Shown: in pieces, positions 12,590 to 15,373 of the stretch
Position numbering within the stretch: position 1 is the stretch's first letter
Layout: each line of letters opens with the position of its first letter
Virus record (IMG/VR): IMGVR_UViG_3300047548_001221
Location: 1-59,036 of that record
From: a virus
Lineage: Duplodnaviria; Caudoviricetes
Direction: 5' to 3' (one strand)
Length of the DNA stretch: 59,036 nt
Position numbers and translations under genes: made by a program
The notes under the pieces: model-generated
Told to the model about the DNA's origin: nothing
The model's input: only the letters and a program-made list of their open reading frames with translations
Databases searched by the model: none

Positions 12590-13420
12590 ATGTCACTATC
12601 AAATAACCCGCTAAAACAGTATTTTCGTAGACCAGCAGTCTATATTAAACTACCTAGTGGTGGAAAATACTATCCACCGGGTGTAATAGATATACCAGAA
12701 AACGGAGAATTACCAGTATATCCAATGACTGCAATTGATGAAATTACCACCAAAACTCCTGATGCACTATTCAATGGGTCAGCAATGACCGAGTTGATAA
12801 AGAGTTGTGTACCTAATATCAAGGATCCGTGGCAAATTAATAGTATGGACTTAGATGCAGTATTAATAGGTATACGTGCTGCTGCAAATGGCACAGATTT
12901 AGAAATAGAATCCACATGTCCTTCATGTAATGATTACGGAAAATATGGTATCAATTTGATTAACATGCTTGTTCAAATGAAACCCGGTGATTATGAAAAT
13001 GAATTTGTTATAAATGATCTTTCTATTAAATTTCGACCACTAAACTACAAAGAAATGAATGAAGCTAGTTTAGGACAATTTGAGTTACAACGTCTTTTTA
13101 TCGCGTTGGAAGATGAAAAAGATGATGAAGTTAAGAAAGAAAAAGGTCAAGAAGCACTGAAACAAGTAACACAGTTAACTATTAAGTTGTTAACTGGAGC
13201 TATCCAATATATACAAACACCAAGTATACGAGTTACTGAAAAAGAATATATCATGGATTTTTTGAATAATTGCGACAAAAATATGTACGTTGCAATTCGT
13301 GATCATAATGCTGTTCTTAAATCTACAACCGAAATAAAACCACTCAAAATAAAGTGTGTGCATTGTGGTCATCAATACGATCAACCATTCACATTAAATA
13401 CCGCTGATTTTTTCGGATGA
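12590..13420 (+). CDS. Baseplate hub protein (T4 gp26-like)
   Basis: LPSGGKYY, PMTAIDE, DLDAVLIGIR, CPSC and CVHC zinc-binding pairs, C-terminal DFFG; GAGGA RBS. Confidence 0.8.
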   Translation: MSLSNNPLKQYFRRPAVYIKLPSGGKYYPPGVIDIPENGELPVYPMTAIDEITTKTPDALFNGSAMTELIKSCVPNIKDPWQINSMDLDAVLIGIRAAANGTDLEIESTCPSCNDYGKYGINLINMLVQMKPGDYENEFVINDLSIKFRPLNYKEMNEASLGQFELQRLFIALEDEKDDEVKKEKGQEALKQVTQLTIKLLTGAIQYIQTPSIRVTEKEYIMDFLNNCDKNMYVAIRDHNAVLKSTTEIKPLKIKCVHCGHQYDQPFTLNTADFFG

Positions 13421-13644
13421 CGCTTCTTCGTCTCGATCCCGAGAGACTACAGAAGCTAATCGATGACTACGAAAAAGCAGTAATCGAGATTAAAAAAAAT
13501 GCCTTGCAAATGGCATGGTATATGCGGGGTGGTGCGACATATGAAGATATCTTAAATATGTCCGCCACCGAACGACAGCAAATCAATCAAATAATAGAAG
13601 GTAATTTAGAAGCCACTAAGAAATCCGGAATGCCGTTCTTCTAA
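13417..13644 (+). CDS. Baseplate hub assembly catalyst (gp51-like)
   Basis: 75 aa with WYMRGGATYEDILNMSATER; ATGA overlap with the gp26-like gene. Confidence 0.6.
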   Translation: MTLLRLDPERLQKLIDDYEKAVIEIKKNALQMAWYMRGGATYEDILNMSATERQQINQIIEGNLEATKKSGMPFF

Positions 13645-13698
13645 ATTTACCCATAACTATTCATTTATCTAATTTTTTTACGTTTATGTTTCTACTAA

Positions 13699-13742
13699 AG
13701 ATGTCCTTCGGACATCTAAGAATTCGCTGACGCTCATTCTTA
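13699..13742 (-). other. Tandem hairpins: 8-bp stem with C-GAA-G triloop and 7-bp stem with GAGCGTCAGCGA loop
   Basis: AGATGTCC/GGACATCT at 13699-13717 and TAAGAAT/ATTCTTA at 13717-13742. Confidence 0.75.
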
Positions 13743-13799
13743 TTTTCTTAACTCTTTTTACTCTGTATTCTCATATAGGTCATTTTAGTTACTCACTGC

Positions 13800-14145
13800 A
13801 CTTGAAGCCATGGTAGTGCTAATTAGCACTACCAATGGCTAAGACTAATCATGCCCGTCATCCATAGTTGTCTATCCCCCAGTGTTTAACTATTTCTGTT
13901 AACATCTGCTACCGGTTGCCCTGTAAAGTTTATGGGACTGTAGTGAAGCTATATCATTTAGTGATACTCTTCGGCAACGCACATTCTATATCATCAAGAC
14001 AAAGTAGATATAGACTTGTTGAGTGTTCGCTTTGTCGATTGCACTCTCGGTATTCCAAGAAAATTAATTCTTGCTACTCCAGAATCCGACGGCACAGCAC
14101 TACCTGTACAATCTCAAGGAGAGTCGAGGATCCCCGACCAAACAA
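13800..14145 (-). ncRNA. Putative large structured ncRNA, family not recognised
   Basis: No credible ORF; visibly more GC-rich than the flanking intergenic DNA; about 10 helices, a possible loop-loop pairing and a terminal 24-bp palindrome. Lies directly downstream of the resolvase stop on the same strand. Confidence 0.6.
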
Positions 14146-14162
14146 ATTTAACGACAAAAAGG

Positions 14163-14726
14163 TTATTTGAGTAAGTTTATTACTGATATGTTTTCGATAG
14201 ATGACTTGGTGTCTGTTTTGGATCTTGAGTATGTTTTAAGTAGGTCTTTGTTGTGTTTGAAAAAATGATCGAATTCAATTATGAGCCAATCATTATATTT
14301 TTTAGATGTATAGTACAAAAATTGGTCTGTAATCCAAGTTAGTTTAGATTGCACGCAAACAAACTTTCCTTTTCTATTAAATTTCATAAACAGTATGTTC
14401 AAATCATGTGGTTCTGATACTGTCATTACTTGATCTATCCAACTGTCTAATATCTTACAGTCTCCTGTTAATACTAGATGAAAAGGGAAATCCGCGTAAG
14501 ATTTGCATTCAGCGTTAAAAAATGAAAAGCTTTGTCCCGGAACAATGTCACCCTTAAAACTGCGAACTTGTCCCTCATGTAAGAATTCTTTTCGACTTTG
14601 ATTCTTACCGCCCACATAGGCTCCAGACCCCGGTGCTCGTATAAACGATTCGCCGTATGTTTTTGATAGATATGTTGCGATTTCTCGCTCAAAACTTGAT
14701 CCTTTTGCTTTCTGTGGACTGACCAT
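14163..14726 (-). CDS. Holliday junction resolvase-like PD-(D/E)XK nuclease (Hjc-like)
   Basis: KAKGSSFERE, GDIV, AECKS motifs. Confidence 0.75.
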   Translation of the reverse strand: MVSPQKAKGSSFEREIATYLSKTYGESFIRAPGSGAYVGGKNQSRKEFLHEGQVRSFKGDIVPGQSFSFFNAECKSYADFPFHLVLTGDCKILDSWIDQVMTVSEPHDLNILFMKFNRKGKFVCVQSKLTWITDQFLYYTSKKYNDWLIIEFDHFFKHNKDLLKTYSRSKTDTKSSIENISVINLLK

Positions 14727-15373
14727 TATGTTGACTTTTTGTTTTTACAGTTATCACCGTGCCAACGATGAAACATATTAATACTTATGCTCTTGTCGCA
14801 GTGCCTGCAAGTTTTTTTTATTTGTGAAGTATGTTTACCTTCGGCTAACATTTTTTGATTAATATCACCGCCTAAAAAATGATGTTTACCTTCAACCACT
14901 CGTTTTTTTGCTAGTTTTCGTTGGATCACCCCGCCAACAAACGGATTGGTTCCTTCTTCTACTCTTTTTAAATTTCTTGCTCTAGTAATTTCCCCGCTAT
15001 TTAAAAAATGGTGGGTTCCGTTCTTGACACGATCAGAACTAACACTAGTTCCATCATGTCTTTTAAGCAAATGATGTGTACCATCGGCAACTCTTTCTTG
15101 TGCCTGTTTAGATGAAAGATTTGATCTTTCTTCTGGTGTCAGATTCACTCTACTGCCGATCAAATTACATGCTCCCCAATCACCCTGATGATAATGTATA
15201 TCATAGTGTTCTTGTATTGTAACTAACTTCAAATTAGATATATTATTGTTATCATGGTTGCCGTCAATATGGTGTATGTCCATTGGTCTACCGTCTTTAT
15301 CTTTTGGAATAGATCCAAAATGCTTTTTGTAGATATCCCGATGATTATTAGGTTTGTTATGTGAACTAGGCAT
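14726..15373 (-). CDS. HNH homing endonuclease
   Basis: DIHHIDGNHDNNNISNL...EHYDIH; five RVxxGTHHF-type repeats; C-terminal CRHC...HRWHGDNC. Confidence 0.85.
   Translation of the reverse strand: MPSSHNKPNNHRDIYKKHFGSIPKDKDGRPMDIHHIDGNHDNNNISNLKLVTIQEHYDIHYHQGDWGACNLIGSRVNLTPEERSNLSSKQAQERVADGTHHLLKRHDGTSVSSDRVKNGTHHFLNSGEITRARNLKRVEEGTNPFVGGVIQRKLAKKRVVEGKHHFLGGDINQKMLAEGKHTSQIKKTCRHCDKSISINMFHRWHGDNCKNKKST

What the first reader, a model, noticed from the sequence alone, without database searches (positions are those of the whole stretch)
13800..14162. Candidate novel large structured ncRNA downstream of the Holliday-junction resolvase
Seen on the minus strand, 5'->3': GUCGGG/CUCGAC (14138-14123); GUACAG/CUGUGC (14109-14092); UCGG-AUUC/GAAU-A-CCGA (14089-14047) enclosing CAAGAA/UUCUUG; GAGUG/CACUC (14046-14021), whose loop GACAAAG (14036-14030) is complementary to CUUUGUC (14004-13998) in the loop of the 8-bp stem UCUAUAUC/GAUAUAGA, giving a possible kissing loop; GUUGCC/GGCAAC (13978-13915) enclosing GAAG/CUUC and UAUCA/UGAUA; CAG-UGU-UAAC/GUUA-ACA-CUG; possible long-range pairs GUCCC/GGGAU, CCAUA/UAUGG and CCGUC/GACGG (the last competes with a neighbouring stem); and a terminal AGCCA/UGGCU-flanked palindrome. 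G-U pairs favour the minus strand. This is the largest non-coding gap in a genome otherwise packed with overlapping genes. I see no hallmarks of tRNA, tmRNA, RNase P, or group I/II introns. Inference: a multi-domain RNA at the end of the gp55-gp47-gp46-HNH-resolvase transcription unit, acting as a replication primer, ribozyme, scaffold or nuclease partner.
Basis: partly seen in the sequence, partly recalled or inferred. Interest (0 to 1): 0.88.

Follow-up and report, generated by a model that had tools for sequence, protein, structure and literature searches.

The report
New large structured phage RNA
The gap holds a real, roughly 350-base folded non-coding RNA with two pseudoknots, found in many uncultured freshwater giant phages, matching no described RNA family and still of unknown function.

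Summary
Window 14142-13788 (minus strand) is a conserved block of about 355 nt, as conserved as the flanking genes. It is non-coding. It folds into about 15 helices with strong covariation: 93.1% of cells paired against 82.4% in shuffles, and 48 of 77 pairs with changes on both sides, reached by 0 of 500 shuffles.

Two pseudoknots and one covarying base triple are supported. The CUUUGUC loop pairs instead with AGACAA at 13873-13868.

Rfam 15 gives no match. I collected 183 distinct copies from viral and metagenome contigs and none from 185,579 prokaryote species genomes. Four 300-525 kb phage genomes each hold one copy.

The gene order PDDEXK nuclease, then RNA, then a convergent baseplate-hub operon is nearly universal. 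Adjacency to the nuclease is still not obligatory.

In more distant relatives the same slot holds Rfam Polynucleobacter-1 plus an undescribed 3' extension, a hybrid, or a third non-coding block.

Function is undetermined. I favour an autonomous RNA made from the operon's 3' end.

The parts
13788..14142 (-). Whole conserved structured RNA ('type A'), about 355 nt. The ends are inferred from where conservation drops, not mapped.
   Evidence: Conservation profile over 23 sequences: 0.64-0.90 inside (0.50 in the variable apical part of H6, 13962-13943), 0.39 at 14162-14143, 0.47-0.60 at 13802-13743. nhmmer hits span this block in 34 of 73 protein-fetched loci.
14122..14139 (-). H1 hairpin (GGUCGGG/CUCGACU), variable in sequence, directly followed by the invariant CUCCUUGAG.
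   Evidence: Pairs covary. Folds as a single hairpin in 87 of 97 sequences where the anchors were found.
14118..14121 (-). CUCC, 5' strand of an invariant helix with GGAG; part of the invariant (Y)CUCCUUGAG.
   Evidence: 100% paired with almost no variation. The hybrid loci L037-39 lack both CUCC and GGAG.
14077..14080 (-). GGAG, 3' strand pairing with CUCC.
14088..14113 (-). H2 hairpin: GAU 14113-14111 with GUC 14090-14088, and GUACAG 14109-14104 with CUGUGC 14097-14092.
   Evidence: 4 of 6 counted pairs change on both sides (helix 4). G-U 65 against A-C 0 in the basal part.
14056..14073 (-). H3 variable hairpin (CAAGAA/UUCUUG).
   Evidence: Single hairpin in 89 of 94 sequences. GNRA tetraloop (GUGA, GCGA, GUAA, GCAA) in 50 of 94.
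14048..14052 (-). Stem A, 5' strand (UACCG), closing the central junction.
   Evidence: Pairs with 13914-13910; 98.5% paired in 107 sequences. 14052-13910 covaries.
13910..13914 (-). Stem A, 3' strand (CGGUA).
14021..14046 (-). H4 hairpin (GAGUG/CACUC with inner UCG/CGA and a conserved internal loop).
   Evidence: 100% paired; 4 of 5 outer pairs covary. Single hairpin in 104 of 104.
13981..14019 (-). H5 hairpin (ACA/UGU plus UCUAUAUC/GAUAUAGA) with a 14-nt loop.
   Evidence: 8 of 8 counted pairs covary; 99.5% paired (helix 9).
13997..14002 (-). Pseudoknot PK2, 5' strand (UUGUCU in the H5 loop).
   Evidence: Pairs with 13873-13868: 6 of 6 pairs 100% paired, 4 of 6 covary (helix 10). Among the top MI pairs: 14002-13868, 14000-13870, 13998-13872.
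13868..13873 (-). Pseudoknot PK2, 3' strand (AGACAA).
13973..13978 (-). Stem B, 5' strand (GUUGCC).
   Evidence: Pairs with 13920-13915; covaries (L272 GUUUC/GGAAC, L126 GUUAC/GUAAC, L081 GUUAUA/UAUAAC).
13915..13920 (-). Stem B, 3' strand (GGCAAC).
13945..13972 (-). H6 variable hairpin (GAAG/CUUC, with UAUCA/UGAUA in the apical part).
   Evidence: Single hairpin in 90 of 90 sequences. 3 of 4 basal pairs covary.
13934..13937 (-). Pseudoknot PK1, 5' strand (UCCC).
   Evidence: Pairs with 13879-13876; 4 of 4 pairs covary; 100% of cells with letters paired (helix 13).
13876..13879 (-). Pseudoknot PK1, 3' strand (GGGG).
13921..13944 (-). Nearly invariant strands ACUACAG and AUAAACUUUACAG inside stem B, on either side of the PK1 strand. 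U13927 covaries with the 14052-13910 pair, suggesting a base triple.
   Evidence: States at 14052/13910/13927: UAU 50, CGC 18, AUA 7 of 107. Per-column conservation.
13880..13908 (-). H8 hairpin (CAG-UGU-UAAC/GUUA-ACA-CUG).
   Evidence: 8 of 8 counted pairs covary (helix 14). Single hairpin in 87 of 87.
13844..13867 (-). Conserved single-stranded stretch (consensus GGAUGACGGGCCAUGGCAAUG), including direct repeat R1 (13856-13844).
   Evidence: Invariant columns in A1. R1/R2 same-base covariation between 13854 and 13799: GG 110, UU 30, CC 19 of 183; examples.
13812..13833 (-). H9, a nearly invariant 9-bp terminal hairpin, followed by the invariant AUGG.
   Evidence: In A1 (23 sequences), 6 of its 8 pairs never vary. 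Also detected as an inverted repeat in the window's own record.
13788..13801 (-). Direct repeat R2 (window GUGCAGUGAGUAAC; consensus AA-N-CGGCAAUG).
13697..13741 (+). Separate conserved element: two hairpins. On the + strand the first has a UUCG tetraloop and the second is followed by a U-rich tail. Probably the terminator of the convergent hub-orf75 operon, not part of the RNA.
   Evidence: Sequence read; conservation 0.60-0.74. The same motif is present in type B, type C and hybrid loci. Not called by the strict terminator scan.

Best explanation
Window 14142-13788 (minus strand) encodes a previously undescribed, single-copy structured non-coding RNA of about 350 nt. It occurs in uncultured freshwater giant myoviruses.

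Shown:
- The fold has a 5' domain (H1, a long CUCC...GGAG hairpin carrying H2, and H3) followed by a central junction. Stem A encloses H4, H5 and stem B; stem B encloses H6.
- Two pseudoknots lock the fold: the H5 loop with 13873-13868, and UCCC with GGGG.
- There is one covarying base triple, an H8 hairpin, a long conserved single strand, and a nearly invariant terminal hairpin H9.

Inferred:
- No promoter is recognisable, and the RNA always lies a few tens of bases behind a gene on the same strand. It is therefore probably made by read-through of the gp55-gp47-gp46-nuclease operon and then kept as a stable RNA derived from the 3' end.
- It probably acts on its own, as a specific binding platform or a catalytic RNA, rather than as an obligatory partner of the neighbouring PDDEXK nuclease.
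- Related phages fill the same slot with other large RNAs (Polynucleobacter-1 plus an extension, a hybrid, a third block). This suggests interchangeable RNAs with an analogous function that may be specific to the host or shaped by an arms race.
For: Conservation:
- 66-82.5% nucleotide identity over about 345 nt in relatives whose nuclease is 64-77% identical in protein.
- The block is as conserved as the flanking coding DNA.

Non-coding:
- tblastn hits to the 100-aa plus-strand ORF break over different frames.
- Spacing between conserved anchors is spread over all three residues modulo 3.

Structure:
- RNAalifold predicts 56 pairs, 31 of them with compensatory changes.
- My curated structure of 77 pairs is 93.1% paired against 82.4% in shuffles. 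48 pairs and 220 cells change on both sides, reached by 0 of 500 shuffles. Slid controls give 31-42% paired.
- In 183 unique sequences, 47 of the top 60 MI-APC pairs fall in the listed helices.
- Variable hairpins fold as single hairpins in 87-104 sequences each; H3 carries a GNRA loop in 50 of 94.
- Triple states are UAU 50, CGC 18, AUA 7 of 107.

Strand:
- G-U far exceeds A-C in the well-aligned helices: H2a 65 to 0, PK2 24 to 1, stem B 13 to 0, PK1 9 to 0.

No known family:
- Rfam at gathering scores gives 0 matches in the window.
- At E up to 10 only chance-level hits appear, in the window, in L021 and in L038.
- No tRNA or tmRNA.

Distribution:
- Metagenome contigs: 113 of 120 stretches.
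- Prokaryote genomes: 0 of 28 pattern hits are real.
- No blastn match in 50,697 GenBank phage records.
- One copy in each of four 300-525 kb genomes.

Autonomy from the nuclease.

Alternative RNAs in the same slot.
Against: - There is no expression evidence. All 23 listed sequencing runs are DNA, so the transcript, its ends and its strand are inferred from sequence only.
- The consensus scans found no promoter or terminator.
- The very tight synteny with the nuclease also fits a functional link: 123 of 124 loci with enough upstream sequence, and 72 of 72 metagenome loci.
- Nothing in the data identifies a ligand, a protein partner or a catalytic activity.
- Pattern-fetched copies were selected through H9, so its invariance among them is partly circular. 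It is nevertheless nearly invariant in the 23 protein-fetched sequences of A1.
- Shuffle controls ignore phylogeny.
Confidence: 0.55

Rival explanations
1. The RNA is a functional partner of the upstream PDDEXK nuclease. It would be an RNP scaffold or cofactor, a specificity element, or a 3'-UTR element that controls the nuclease mRNA in cis.
For: The nuclease gene lies immediately upstream on the same strand in 123 of 124 loci with at least 700 nt upstream and in 72 of 72 metagenome loci. The slot behind this gene also holds a large RNA in distant relatives: 62 of 73 protein-fetched loci carry some conserved non-coding block there.
Against: - L136 keeps the RNA, but the nuclease gene is replaced by radical-SAM, SPASM and SegE GIY-YIG genes.
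- In the complete 372-kb genome G001, Polynucleobacter-1 lies about 220 kb from the PDDEXK gene.
- 11 of 73 relatives and the cultured jumbo phages PA5oct and SCTP-2 have the nuclease with no RNA gap behind it.
- No hypervariable unstructured segment looks like a guide. The variable parts are all hairpins.
Confidence: 0.15
2. It is a purely cis-acting 3' end element. It would act as a block to exonucleases, a processing site or an insulator that protects the operon's mRNA or stops read-through into the convergent late baseplate operon.
For: It always lies at the 3' end of a co-directional gene and faces a convergent operon. It has no promoter of its own.
Against: About 15 helices, two pseudoknots, a base triple and long invariant single strands are far more than 3' end protection needs. 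A separate conserved double hairpin (13741-13697) already sits between the operons. In G001 the syntenic RNA type lies between co-directional genes.
Confidence: 0.13
3. It is a ribozyme of a new class, for instance self-cleaving to release itself from the mRNA or acting on another substrate.
For: Its size, pseudoknotted core, frequent GNRA-capped peripheral hairpin (H3) and invariant junction nucleotides resemble large ribozymes.
Against: It matches no Rfam ribozyme model, including group I and II introns, RNase P, hammerhead, twister, HDV and glmS. No exons or splice-site context are present: the upstream ORF is complete against its Pfam profile. No activity data exist.
Confidence: 0.1
4. It is a ligand-sensing, riboswitch-like RNA.
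For: It has a highly conserved junction and pseudoknots. The covarying triple at 14052/13910/13927 could also be read as two alternative pairings, which would make a switch.
Against: No gene lies downstream on the same strand. It is far larger than known aptamers. It matches no riboswitch model.
Confidence: 0.04
5. It is not an RNA at all. It would be a protein-coding or decayed gene, or an element acting as single-stranded DNA, such as an origin or a priming site.
For: A 100-aa ORF is open on the plus strand (13868-14170). G-T wobble pairs can also form in single-stranded DNA.
Against: - The ORF translation is low-complexity, and its tblastn hits in relatives break across frames.
- Anchor spacing is not a multiple of three.
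- On the opposite strand only 29 of 107 sequences have a stop-free stretch of 80 aa or more.
- GNRA tetraloops, pseudoknots and a base triple are hallmarks of RNA.
Confidence: 0.03

Closest known systems
Polynucleobacter-1 RNA (Rfam RF01718; Weinberg et al. 2010, PMC2864571; I saw only its table entry and the passages found)
   Same: - It occupies the same slot, directly behind the PDDEXK nuclease gene on the same strand, in 9 of 16 distant relatives scanned with Rfam and 20 of 73 loci by my HMM.
- It comes from freshwater environments.
- Its function is unknown.
- It starts with three hairpins in series followed by a closing stem that encloses two hairpins, and has GGAU after the second hairpin (my reading).
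- In these phages it is followed by a 3' module with a hairpin between covarying direct repeats, as in type A.
- Hybrid loci L037-39 join the type A H1-H2 module to the type B 3' extension.
   Different: - No sequence or CM similarity: RF01718 does not hit the window at E up to 10 or L021.
- The type B extension HMM does not hit type A at E up to 1.
- RF01718 is 141 nt; this RNA is about 350 nt with a different core and pseudoknots.
- Homology is not shown.
GOLLD and ROOL, large ornate RNAs associated with phages and prophages (Rfam families; cryo-EM preprint 10.1101/2024.12.08.627333 seen only in search listings; properties otherwise recalled)
   Same: Large, intricately folded orphan RNAs of unknown biochemical function that are carried by phages.
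   Different: No Rfam match to either. This RNA is smaller. No tRNA genes lie nearby. Self-assembly was not tested.
Group I introns of T4-like phages
   Same: Similar size, a pseudoknotted core, GNRA-capped peripheral hairpins, and a homing-endonuclease gene nearby in this window.
   Different: - There are no flanking exons: the upstream ORF is complete and nothing is coded downstream.
- The helix order does not fit P3-P9.
- No Rfam intron model hits.
- The HNH gene is absent from this position in relatives.
Nuclease-associated guide or scaffold RNAs (HEARO/IscB omega RNA, TnpB omega RNA; properties recalled)
   Same: A structured RNA of some hundreds of bases adjoining a nuclease gene.
   Different: - The neighbour is a PD-(D/E)XK protein, not a RuvC/HNH effector.
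- There is no variable guide-like end.
- The RNA persists without the gene next to it.
- No HEARO match.

Membership tests
Polynucleobacter-1 RNA (RF01718) | Score at or above the family's gathering threshold (37 bits) against the Rfam covariance model | tested here: not met
   No RF01718 hit in the window at gathering scores or at E up to 10 on 13400-14400. None in type A locus L021. The same model scores 54-103 bits in 9 distant loci.
Polynucleobacter-1 RNA (RF01718) | Genomic position as seen in the phage members: directly downstream of the PDDEXK gene, same strand | tested here: met
Group I intron | Interrupts a gene (flanking exons, with P1 and P10 pairing to them) | tested here: not met
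   The upstream ORF matches 2-160 of the 164-position PDDEXK_15 profile and ends with its own stop codon. There is no downstream coding continuation.
Group I intron | Match to the Rfam group I covariance models and the P3-P7 core order | tested here: not met
   No hit at E up to 10. In the covariation-supported helix order, 14 nt and stem B lie between the PK1 5' strand and the stem A 3' strand.
RNase P RNA / tmRNA / SRP RNA / 6S RNA | Match to the Rfam models; ARAGORN call for tmRNA | tested here: not met
GOLLD, ROOL, HEARO, OLE, raiA (large orphan RNAs in Rfam) | Match to the Rfam covariance model | tested here: not met
   0 matches at gathering scores in the 59-kb window. None among the 6 weak hits at E up to 10.
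Small self-cleaving ribozymes (hammerhead, twister, pistol, hatchet, HDV, glmS) | Match to the Rfam models; self-cleavage | tested here: not met
   No model match. Cleavage activity cannot be tested with these tools.
Riboswitch | Lies in the 5' leader of a regulated gene, with an aptamer plus an expression platform | tested here: not met
   No co-directional gene lies downstream; the next genes are convergent.
RT-associated template RNAs (retron msr/msd, DRT2 ncRNA; recalled) | A reverse transcriptase gene in the same genome | tested here: not met
   RVT_1 (PF00078) was found in 0 of 5 large phage genomes carrying type A or B, 4 of them at least 90% complete. The control rang in 3 of 14 genomes.
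Structured non-coding RNA (generic) | Conserved helices kept through compensatory changes, above controls; non-coding substitution pattern | tested here: met

The most novel reading that the evidence does not exclude
This is one member of a set of interchangeable, modular, ornate RNAs: type A, Polynucleobacter-1 plus extension, hybrids, and type C. Giant freshwater phages keep them in one fixed slot. They share a 3' module in which covarying direct repeats flank a conserved hairpin. The module would bind one partner twice, either a nucleic acid target in trans or a head-to-tail protein dimer. The large pseudoknotted body would be a new catalytic or self-assembling RNA used for host takeover or counter-defence.
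Probability: 0.2. Interest if true: 0.9.

Novelty: new variant of a known kind. Interest (0 to 1): 0.74.

Why it matters
Natural RNAs above 300 nt with pseudoknotted, highly conserved cores are rare. Most such classes whose function has been established turned out to be ribozymes or central machines, and a few remain orphans.

This one has at least 183 distinct natural sequences, which is enough for firm covariation modelling and for structural work. It occurs as a single copy in 300-525 kb phage genomes.

The analysis also shows that the Rfam family Polynucleobacter-1, unexplained since 2010, is the 5' part of a larger phage RNA. It further shows that related phages swap different large RNAs, and modules of them, at one genomic position.

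That gives a concrete system for asking what large non-coding RNAs do for giant phages.

Tried and rejected
- Expression: the look-up of sequencing runs listed 23 DNA runs (freshwater, lake, subsurface) and no RNA holder. I did not use read laying, because only DNA contigs were on offer.
I did not build a shorter model and used nhmmer profiles and my own counts instead. Distant members that only a CM would find may therefore be missing.
- Coding hypothesis: rejected.
A basal extension of H9 in shifting registers remains possible by eye only.
- Switch between stem B and the R1/R2 repeats, all of which contain GGCAA: rejected, because stem B covaries on its own.
- Reverse-transcriptase template idea: no RVT_1 in 5 of 5 large genomes.
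- A link to the 75-aa ORF: it is conserved in 172 loci, but it does not accompany the RNA in G001.
- Bacterial copies: the 28 pattern hits in genome contigs are about the number I estimate by chance for such a pattern, and none carries the element.
- Polynucleobacter-1 was not found in 4 plus 151 sampled bacterial genomes, so its bacterial context could not be examined.
- PDB sequence search and NCBIfam scan for the nuclease: nothing. No structure prediction was run.
- RNAalifold on the type B extension recovered only 8 pairs from a poor MAFFT alignment. Its structure is therefore not established here.
- Literature: searches found no description of this RNA. 'Polynucleobacter-1' occurs in one paper only.
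  - PMC12619734 holds none of my search terms.
Full report
**What is there.** The window is a 59-kb fragment of a viral record, estimated 17% complete. It carries major head, portal, tape-measure and baseplate genes. On the minus strand it carries, in order:
- a gp55-like late sigma factor;
- SbcD/gp47-like and SbcC/gp46-like nuclease subunits;
- an HNH endonuclease;
- a 187-aa PDDEXK_15 protein, which PHROGs calls a RusA-like resolvase.

That gene ends at 14163. A convergent baseplate-hub gene and a 75-aa ORF end at 13644. The 518-nt gap between them is the largest between ORFs of 70 aa or more in the window.

**Is it more than chance?** The minus strand of 13800-14162 folds to -105.6 kcal/mol against -90.6 +/- 5.1 for shuffles (z = -2.97). 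The plus strand gives z = -2.70. That is modest on its own; the decisive evidence is comparative.
- The PDDEXK protein retrieved 73 viral loci.
- In 34 of them the DNA just behind the gene matches the window over about 345 nt at 66-82.5% identity.
- Across 23 sequences the block 14142-13803 is as conserved (0.64-0.90, dipping to 0.50 only in the variable apical part of H6) as the adjoining coding DNA (0.74-0.81). It is bounded by poorly conserved stretches.

**It is not coding.**
- The 100-aa plus-strand ORF (13868-14170) translates to a Cys/Arg/Ser-rich string.
- Its tblastn matches in relatives break over different frames.
- Distances between conserved anchors fall in all three classes modulo 3.

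**Structure.** RNAalifold on a MAFFT alignment of 23 distinct sequences (A1) gave 56 pairs, 31 with compensatory changes. A1 left out L013, which is cut by a contig end, and L029, which has an insertion; duplicates were collapsed.

A pattern for the terminal hairpin brought in at least 119 more viral stretches and 120 metagenome stretches. All 119 and 113 of 120 carry the element. That gave 107 and then 183 distinct sequences.

Mutual information on these alignments recovers the helices and adds two pseudoknots:
- PK2: the H5 loop UUGUCU (14002-13997) with AGACAA (13873-13868).
- PK1: UCCC (13937-13934) with GGGG (13879-13876).

On A1 my structure of 77 pairs scores as follows:
- 93.1% paired against 82.4% in shuffles;
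- 48 pairs and 220 cells changed on both sides, reached by 0 of 500 shuffles;
- slid controls reach only 31-42% paired;
- PK2 is 100% paired with 4 of 6 pairs covarying;
- PK1 has 4 of 4 pairs covarying.

Hairpins too variable for MAFFT still fold as single hairpins in each sequence:

| Hairpin | Single hairpin / sequences tested |
|---|---|
| H1 | 87 of 97 |
| H2 | 87 of 97 |
| H3 | 89 of 94 |
| H4 | 104 of 104 |
| H6 | 90 of 90 |
| H8 | 87 of 87 |

H3 ends in a GNRA tetraloop in 50 of 94 sequences.

Position 13927 covaries with the 14052-13910 pair: UAU 50, CGC 18, AUA 7 of 107. This is the pattern of a base triple, or of two alternative pairings.

G-U far outnumbers A-C in the well-aligned helices, so the minus strand is the folded strand.

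Most hairpins and GUCCC/GGGAU are right. The following are no better than shuffles:
- UCGG-AUUC/GAAU-A-CCGA;
- the GACAAAG/CUUUGUC kissing loop;
- CCAUA/UAUGG;
- CCGUC/GACGG.

ACCG (14051-14048) pairs with CGGU (13914-13911) instead. The CUUUGUC loop pairs with 13873-13868.

**Known families.**
- Rfam 15 gives nothing at gathering scores in the whole window.
- At E up to 10 it gives only chance-level hits in the region, in a divergent member and in a hybrid locus.
- ARAGORN finds no tRNA or tmRNA in the window or in 45 related loci.
- blastn against 50,697 GenBank phage records finds nothing.
- The nearest cultured homologues of the nuclease (SCTP-2 44.5%, PA5oct 40%, Phosso 39%) have no gap behind the gene.
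- The 28 pattern hits in 185,579 prokaryote species genomes are chance matches to the hairpin alone.
- Four phage genomes of 300-525 kb hold one copy each.

**Context.** The nuclease gene is immediately upstream in 123 of 124 loci with enough sequence, and the hub operon is convergent downstream in 124 of 124. Some contigs were fetched twice by different routes. In metagenome contigs the figures are 72 of 72 and 69 of 69, partly the same assemblies as the viral set.

The HNH gene of the window is a stray. A homologue appears in 1 of 102 relatives, and there it lies elsewhere.

Adjacency to the nuclease is not obligatory:
- In L136 the nuclease is replaced by radical-SAM, SPASM and SegE-like genes, and the RNA remains.

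**The slot in distant relatives.** An Rfam scan of 16 more distant loci found Polynucleobacter-1 (RF01718, 141 nt, function unknown) directly behind the PDDEXK gene in 9 of them. There it is followed by a further conserved stretch of about 250 nt.

Among the 73 protein-fetched loci the slot holds:

| Content of the slot | Loci |
|---|---|
| Type A (this RNA) | 34 |
| Polynucleobacter-1 plus extension | 20 |
| The extension with another 5' module | 2 |
| Hybrid of type A H1-H2 with the type B extension | 3 |
| A third conserved non-coding block | 3 |
| Nothing detected | 11 |

The third block is described. In a complete 372-kb genome, Polynucleobacter-1 lies about 220 kb from the PDDEXK gene, behind a DUF5591 gene. 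Type A and type B share no detectable sequence similarity.

**How it probably works.**

Shown: a single-copy, strongly constrained, compactly folded RNA-type structure on the minus strand.

Inferred:
- Its own promoter is not recognisable.
- It always follows a co-directional gene by a few tens of bases.
- So it is most simply made from the operon's 3' end and retained as a stable RNA.

The invariant junction strands, pseudoknots, triple and GNRA-capped arm point to a specific three-dimensional fold that binds something or catalyses something. The replacement of one large RNA by another at the same position suggests analogous roles that may depend on the host. I put 0.55 on this autonomous-RNA reading, and less on the nuclease partner (0.15), a pure 3' end element (0.13), a new ribozyme as such (0.10), a riboswitch (0.04), and no RNA at all (0.03).

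**Unexplained.** Two direct repeats flank the terminal hairpin and change together.
- Columns 13854 and 13799 read GG 110, UU 30, CC 19 of 183.
- Matched variants include GGCAG/GGCAG, AGCA/AGCA and GUUGAA/GUUGAA.
- Type B shows the same arrangement, with six matched variants.
- Stem B, which also contains GGCAA, does not covary with the repeats.
- No reverse transcriptase is present in 5 large genomes.
- Confounding by phylogeny is not excluded.

**Limits.**
- No RNA data were available.
- No full-length covariance model was built.
- The shuffle controls ignore phylogeny.
- H9 invariance among pattern-fetched copies is partly circular.
- Supplementary tables of the one large viral RNA survey (PMC10690425) were closed.

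Noticed in passing
L044:4536-5003; L052:4522-4940; L056:4526-4999 and other type B loci: Rfam Polynucleobacter-1 (141 nt) is followed in these phages by a further conserved non-coding stretch of about 250-320 nt (motif GAGGUACCGGNCAACCGCCUC, then a hairpin between covarying direct repeats). The Rfam family therefore seems to be the 5' part of a larger RNA.
   Followed up: partly
L037:5290-5700; L038:5293-5680; L039: Hybrid RNA. The H1-H2 module of type A (about 80 nt, 83-88% identical to the window) is joined to the type B 3' extension. It lies behind an inserted 261-aa ORF with no Pfam or PHROG match.
   Followed up: partly
L036:3114-3970; L040:4500-5130; L050:4503-5350: A third conserved non-coding block ('type C') occupies the same slot: 75-79% nucleotide identity over 417-867 nt among three loci. 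It has no Rfam match and no similarity to types A or B.
   Followed up: partly
window 13697-13741: A conserved double hairpin lies between the RNA and the 75-aa ORF. On the + strand it reads as a UUCG-capped hairpin plus a second hairpin and a U-rich tail, a likely terminator of the hub operon. The loop motif UGAGCGnnAGCGAA (minus-strand reading) is kept across type A, B, C and hybrid loci.
   Followed up: partly
window 14726-15373 (-): An HNH_3 'intron-like' endonuclease gene lies between the gp46-like and PDDEXK genes. It is absent from this position in relatives (a homologue in 1 of 102, elsewhere), so it is a free-standing homing-endonuclease insertion. L136 has a SegE-like GIY-YIG gene in the same neighbourhood.
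   Followed up: partly
window 30557-50800 (+): A single open reading frame of 6747 aa in the structural-gene region. Not examined.
   Followed up: no
window 13417-13644 (+): A conserved 75-aa protein (motif WYMRGG...NLExTKKSGxPFF) ends the baseplate-hub operon. It was found in 172 loci and has no Pfam or PHROG family.
   Followed up: partly
L224:3636-4541 (G001, 372-kb complete phage): Where Polynucleobacter-1 lies away from the PDDEXK gene, the gene in front of it carries a DUF5591 domain (E = 2.5e-6), a domain otherwise known (recalled) from archaeosine-type tRNA modification enzymes.
   Followed up: no
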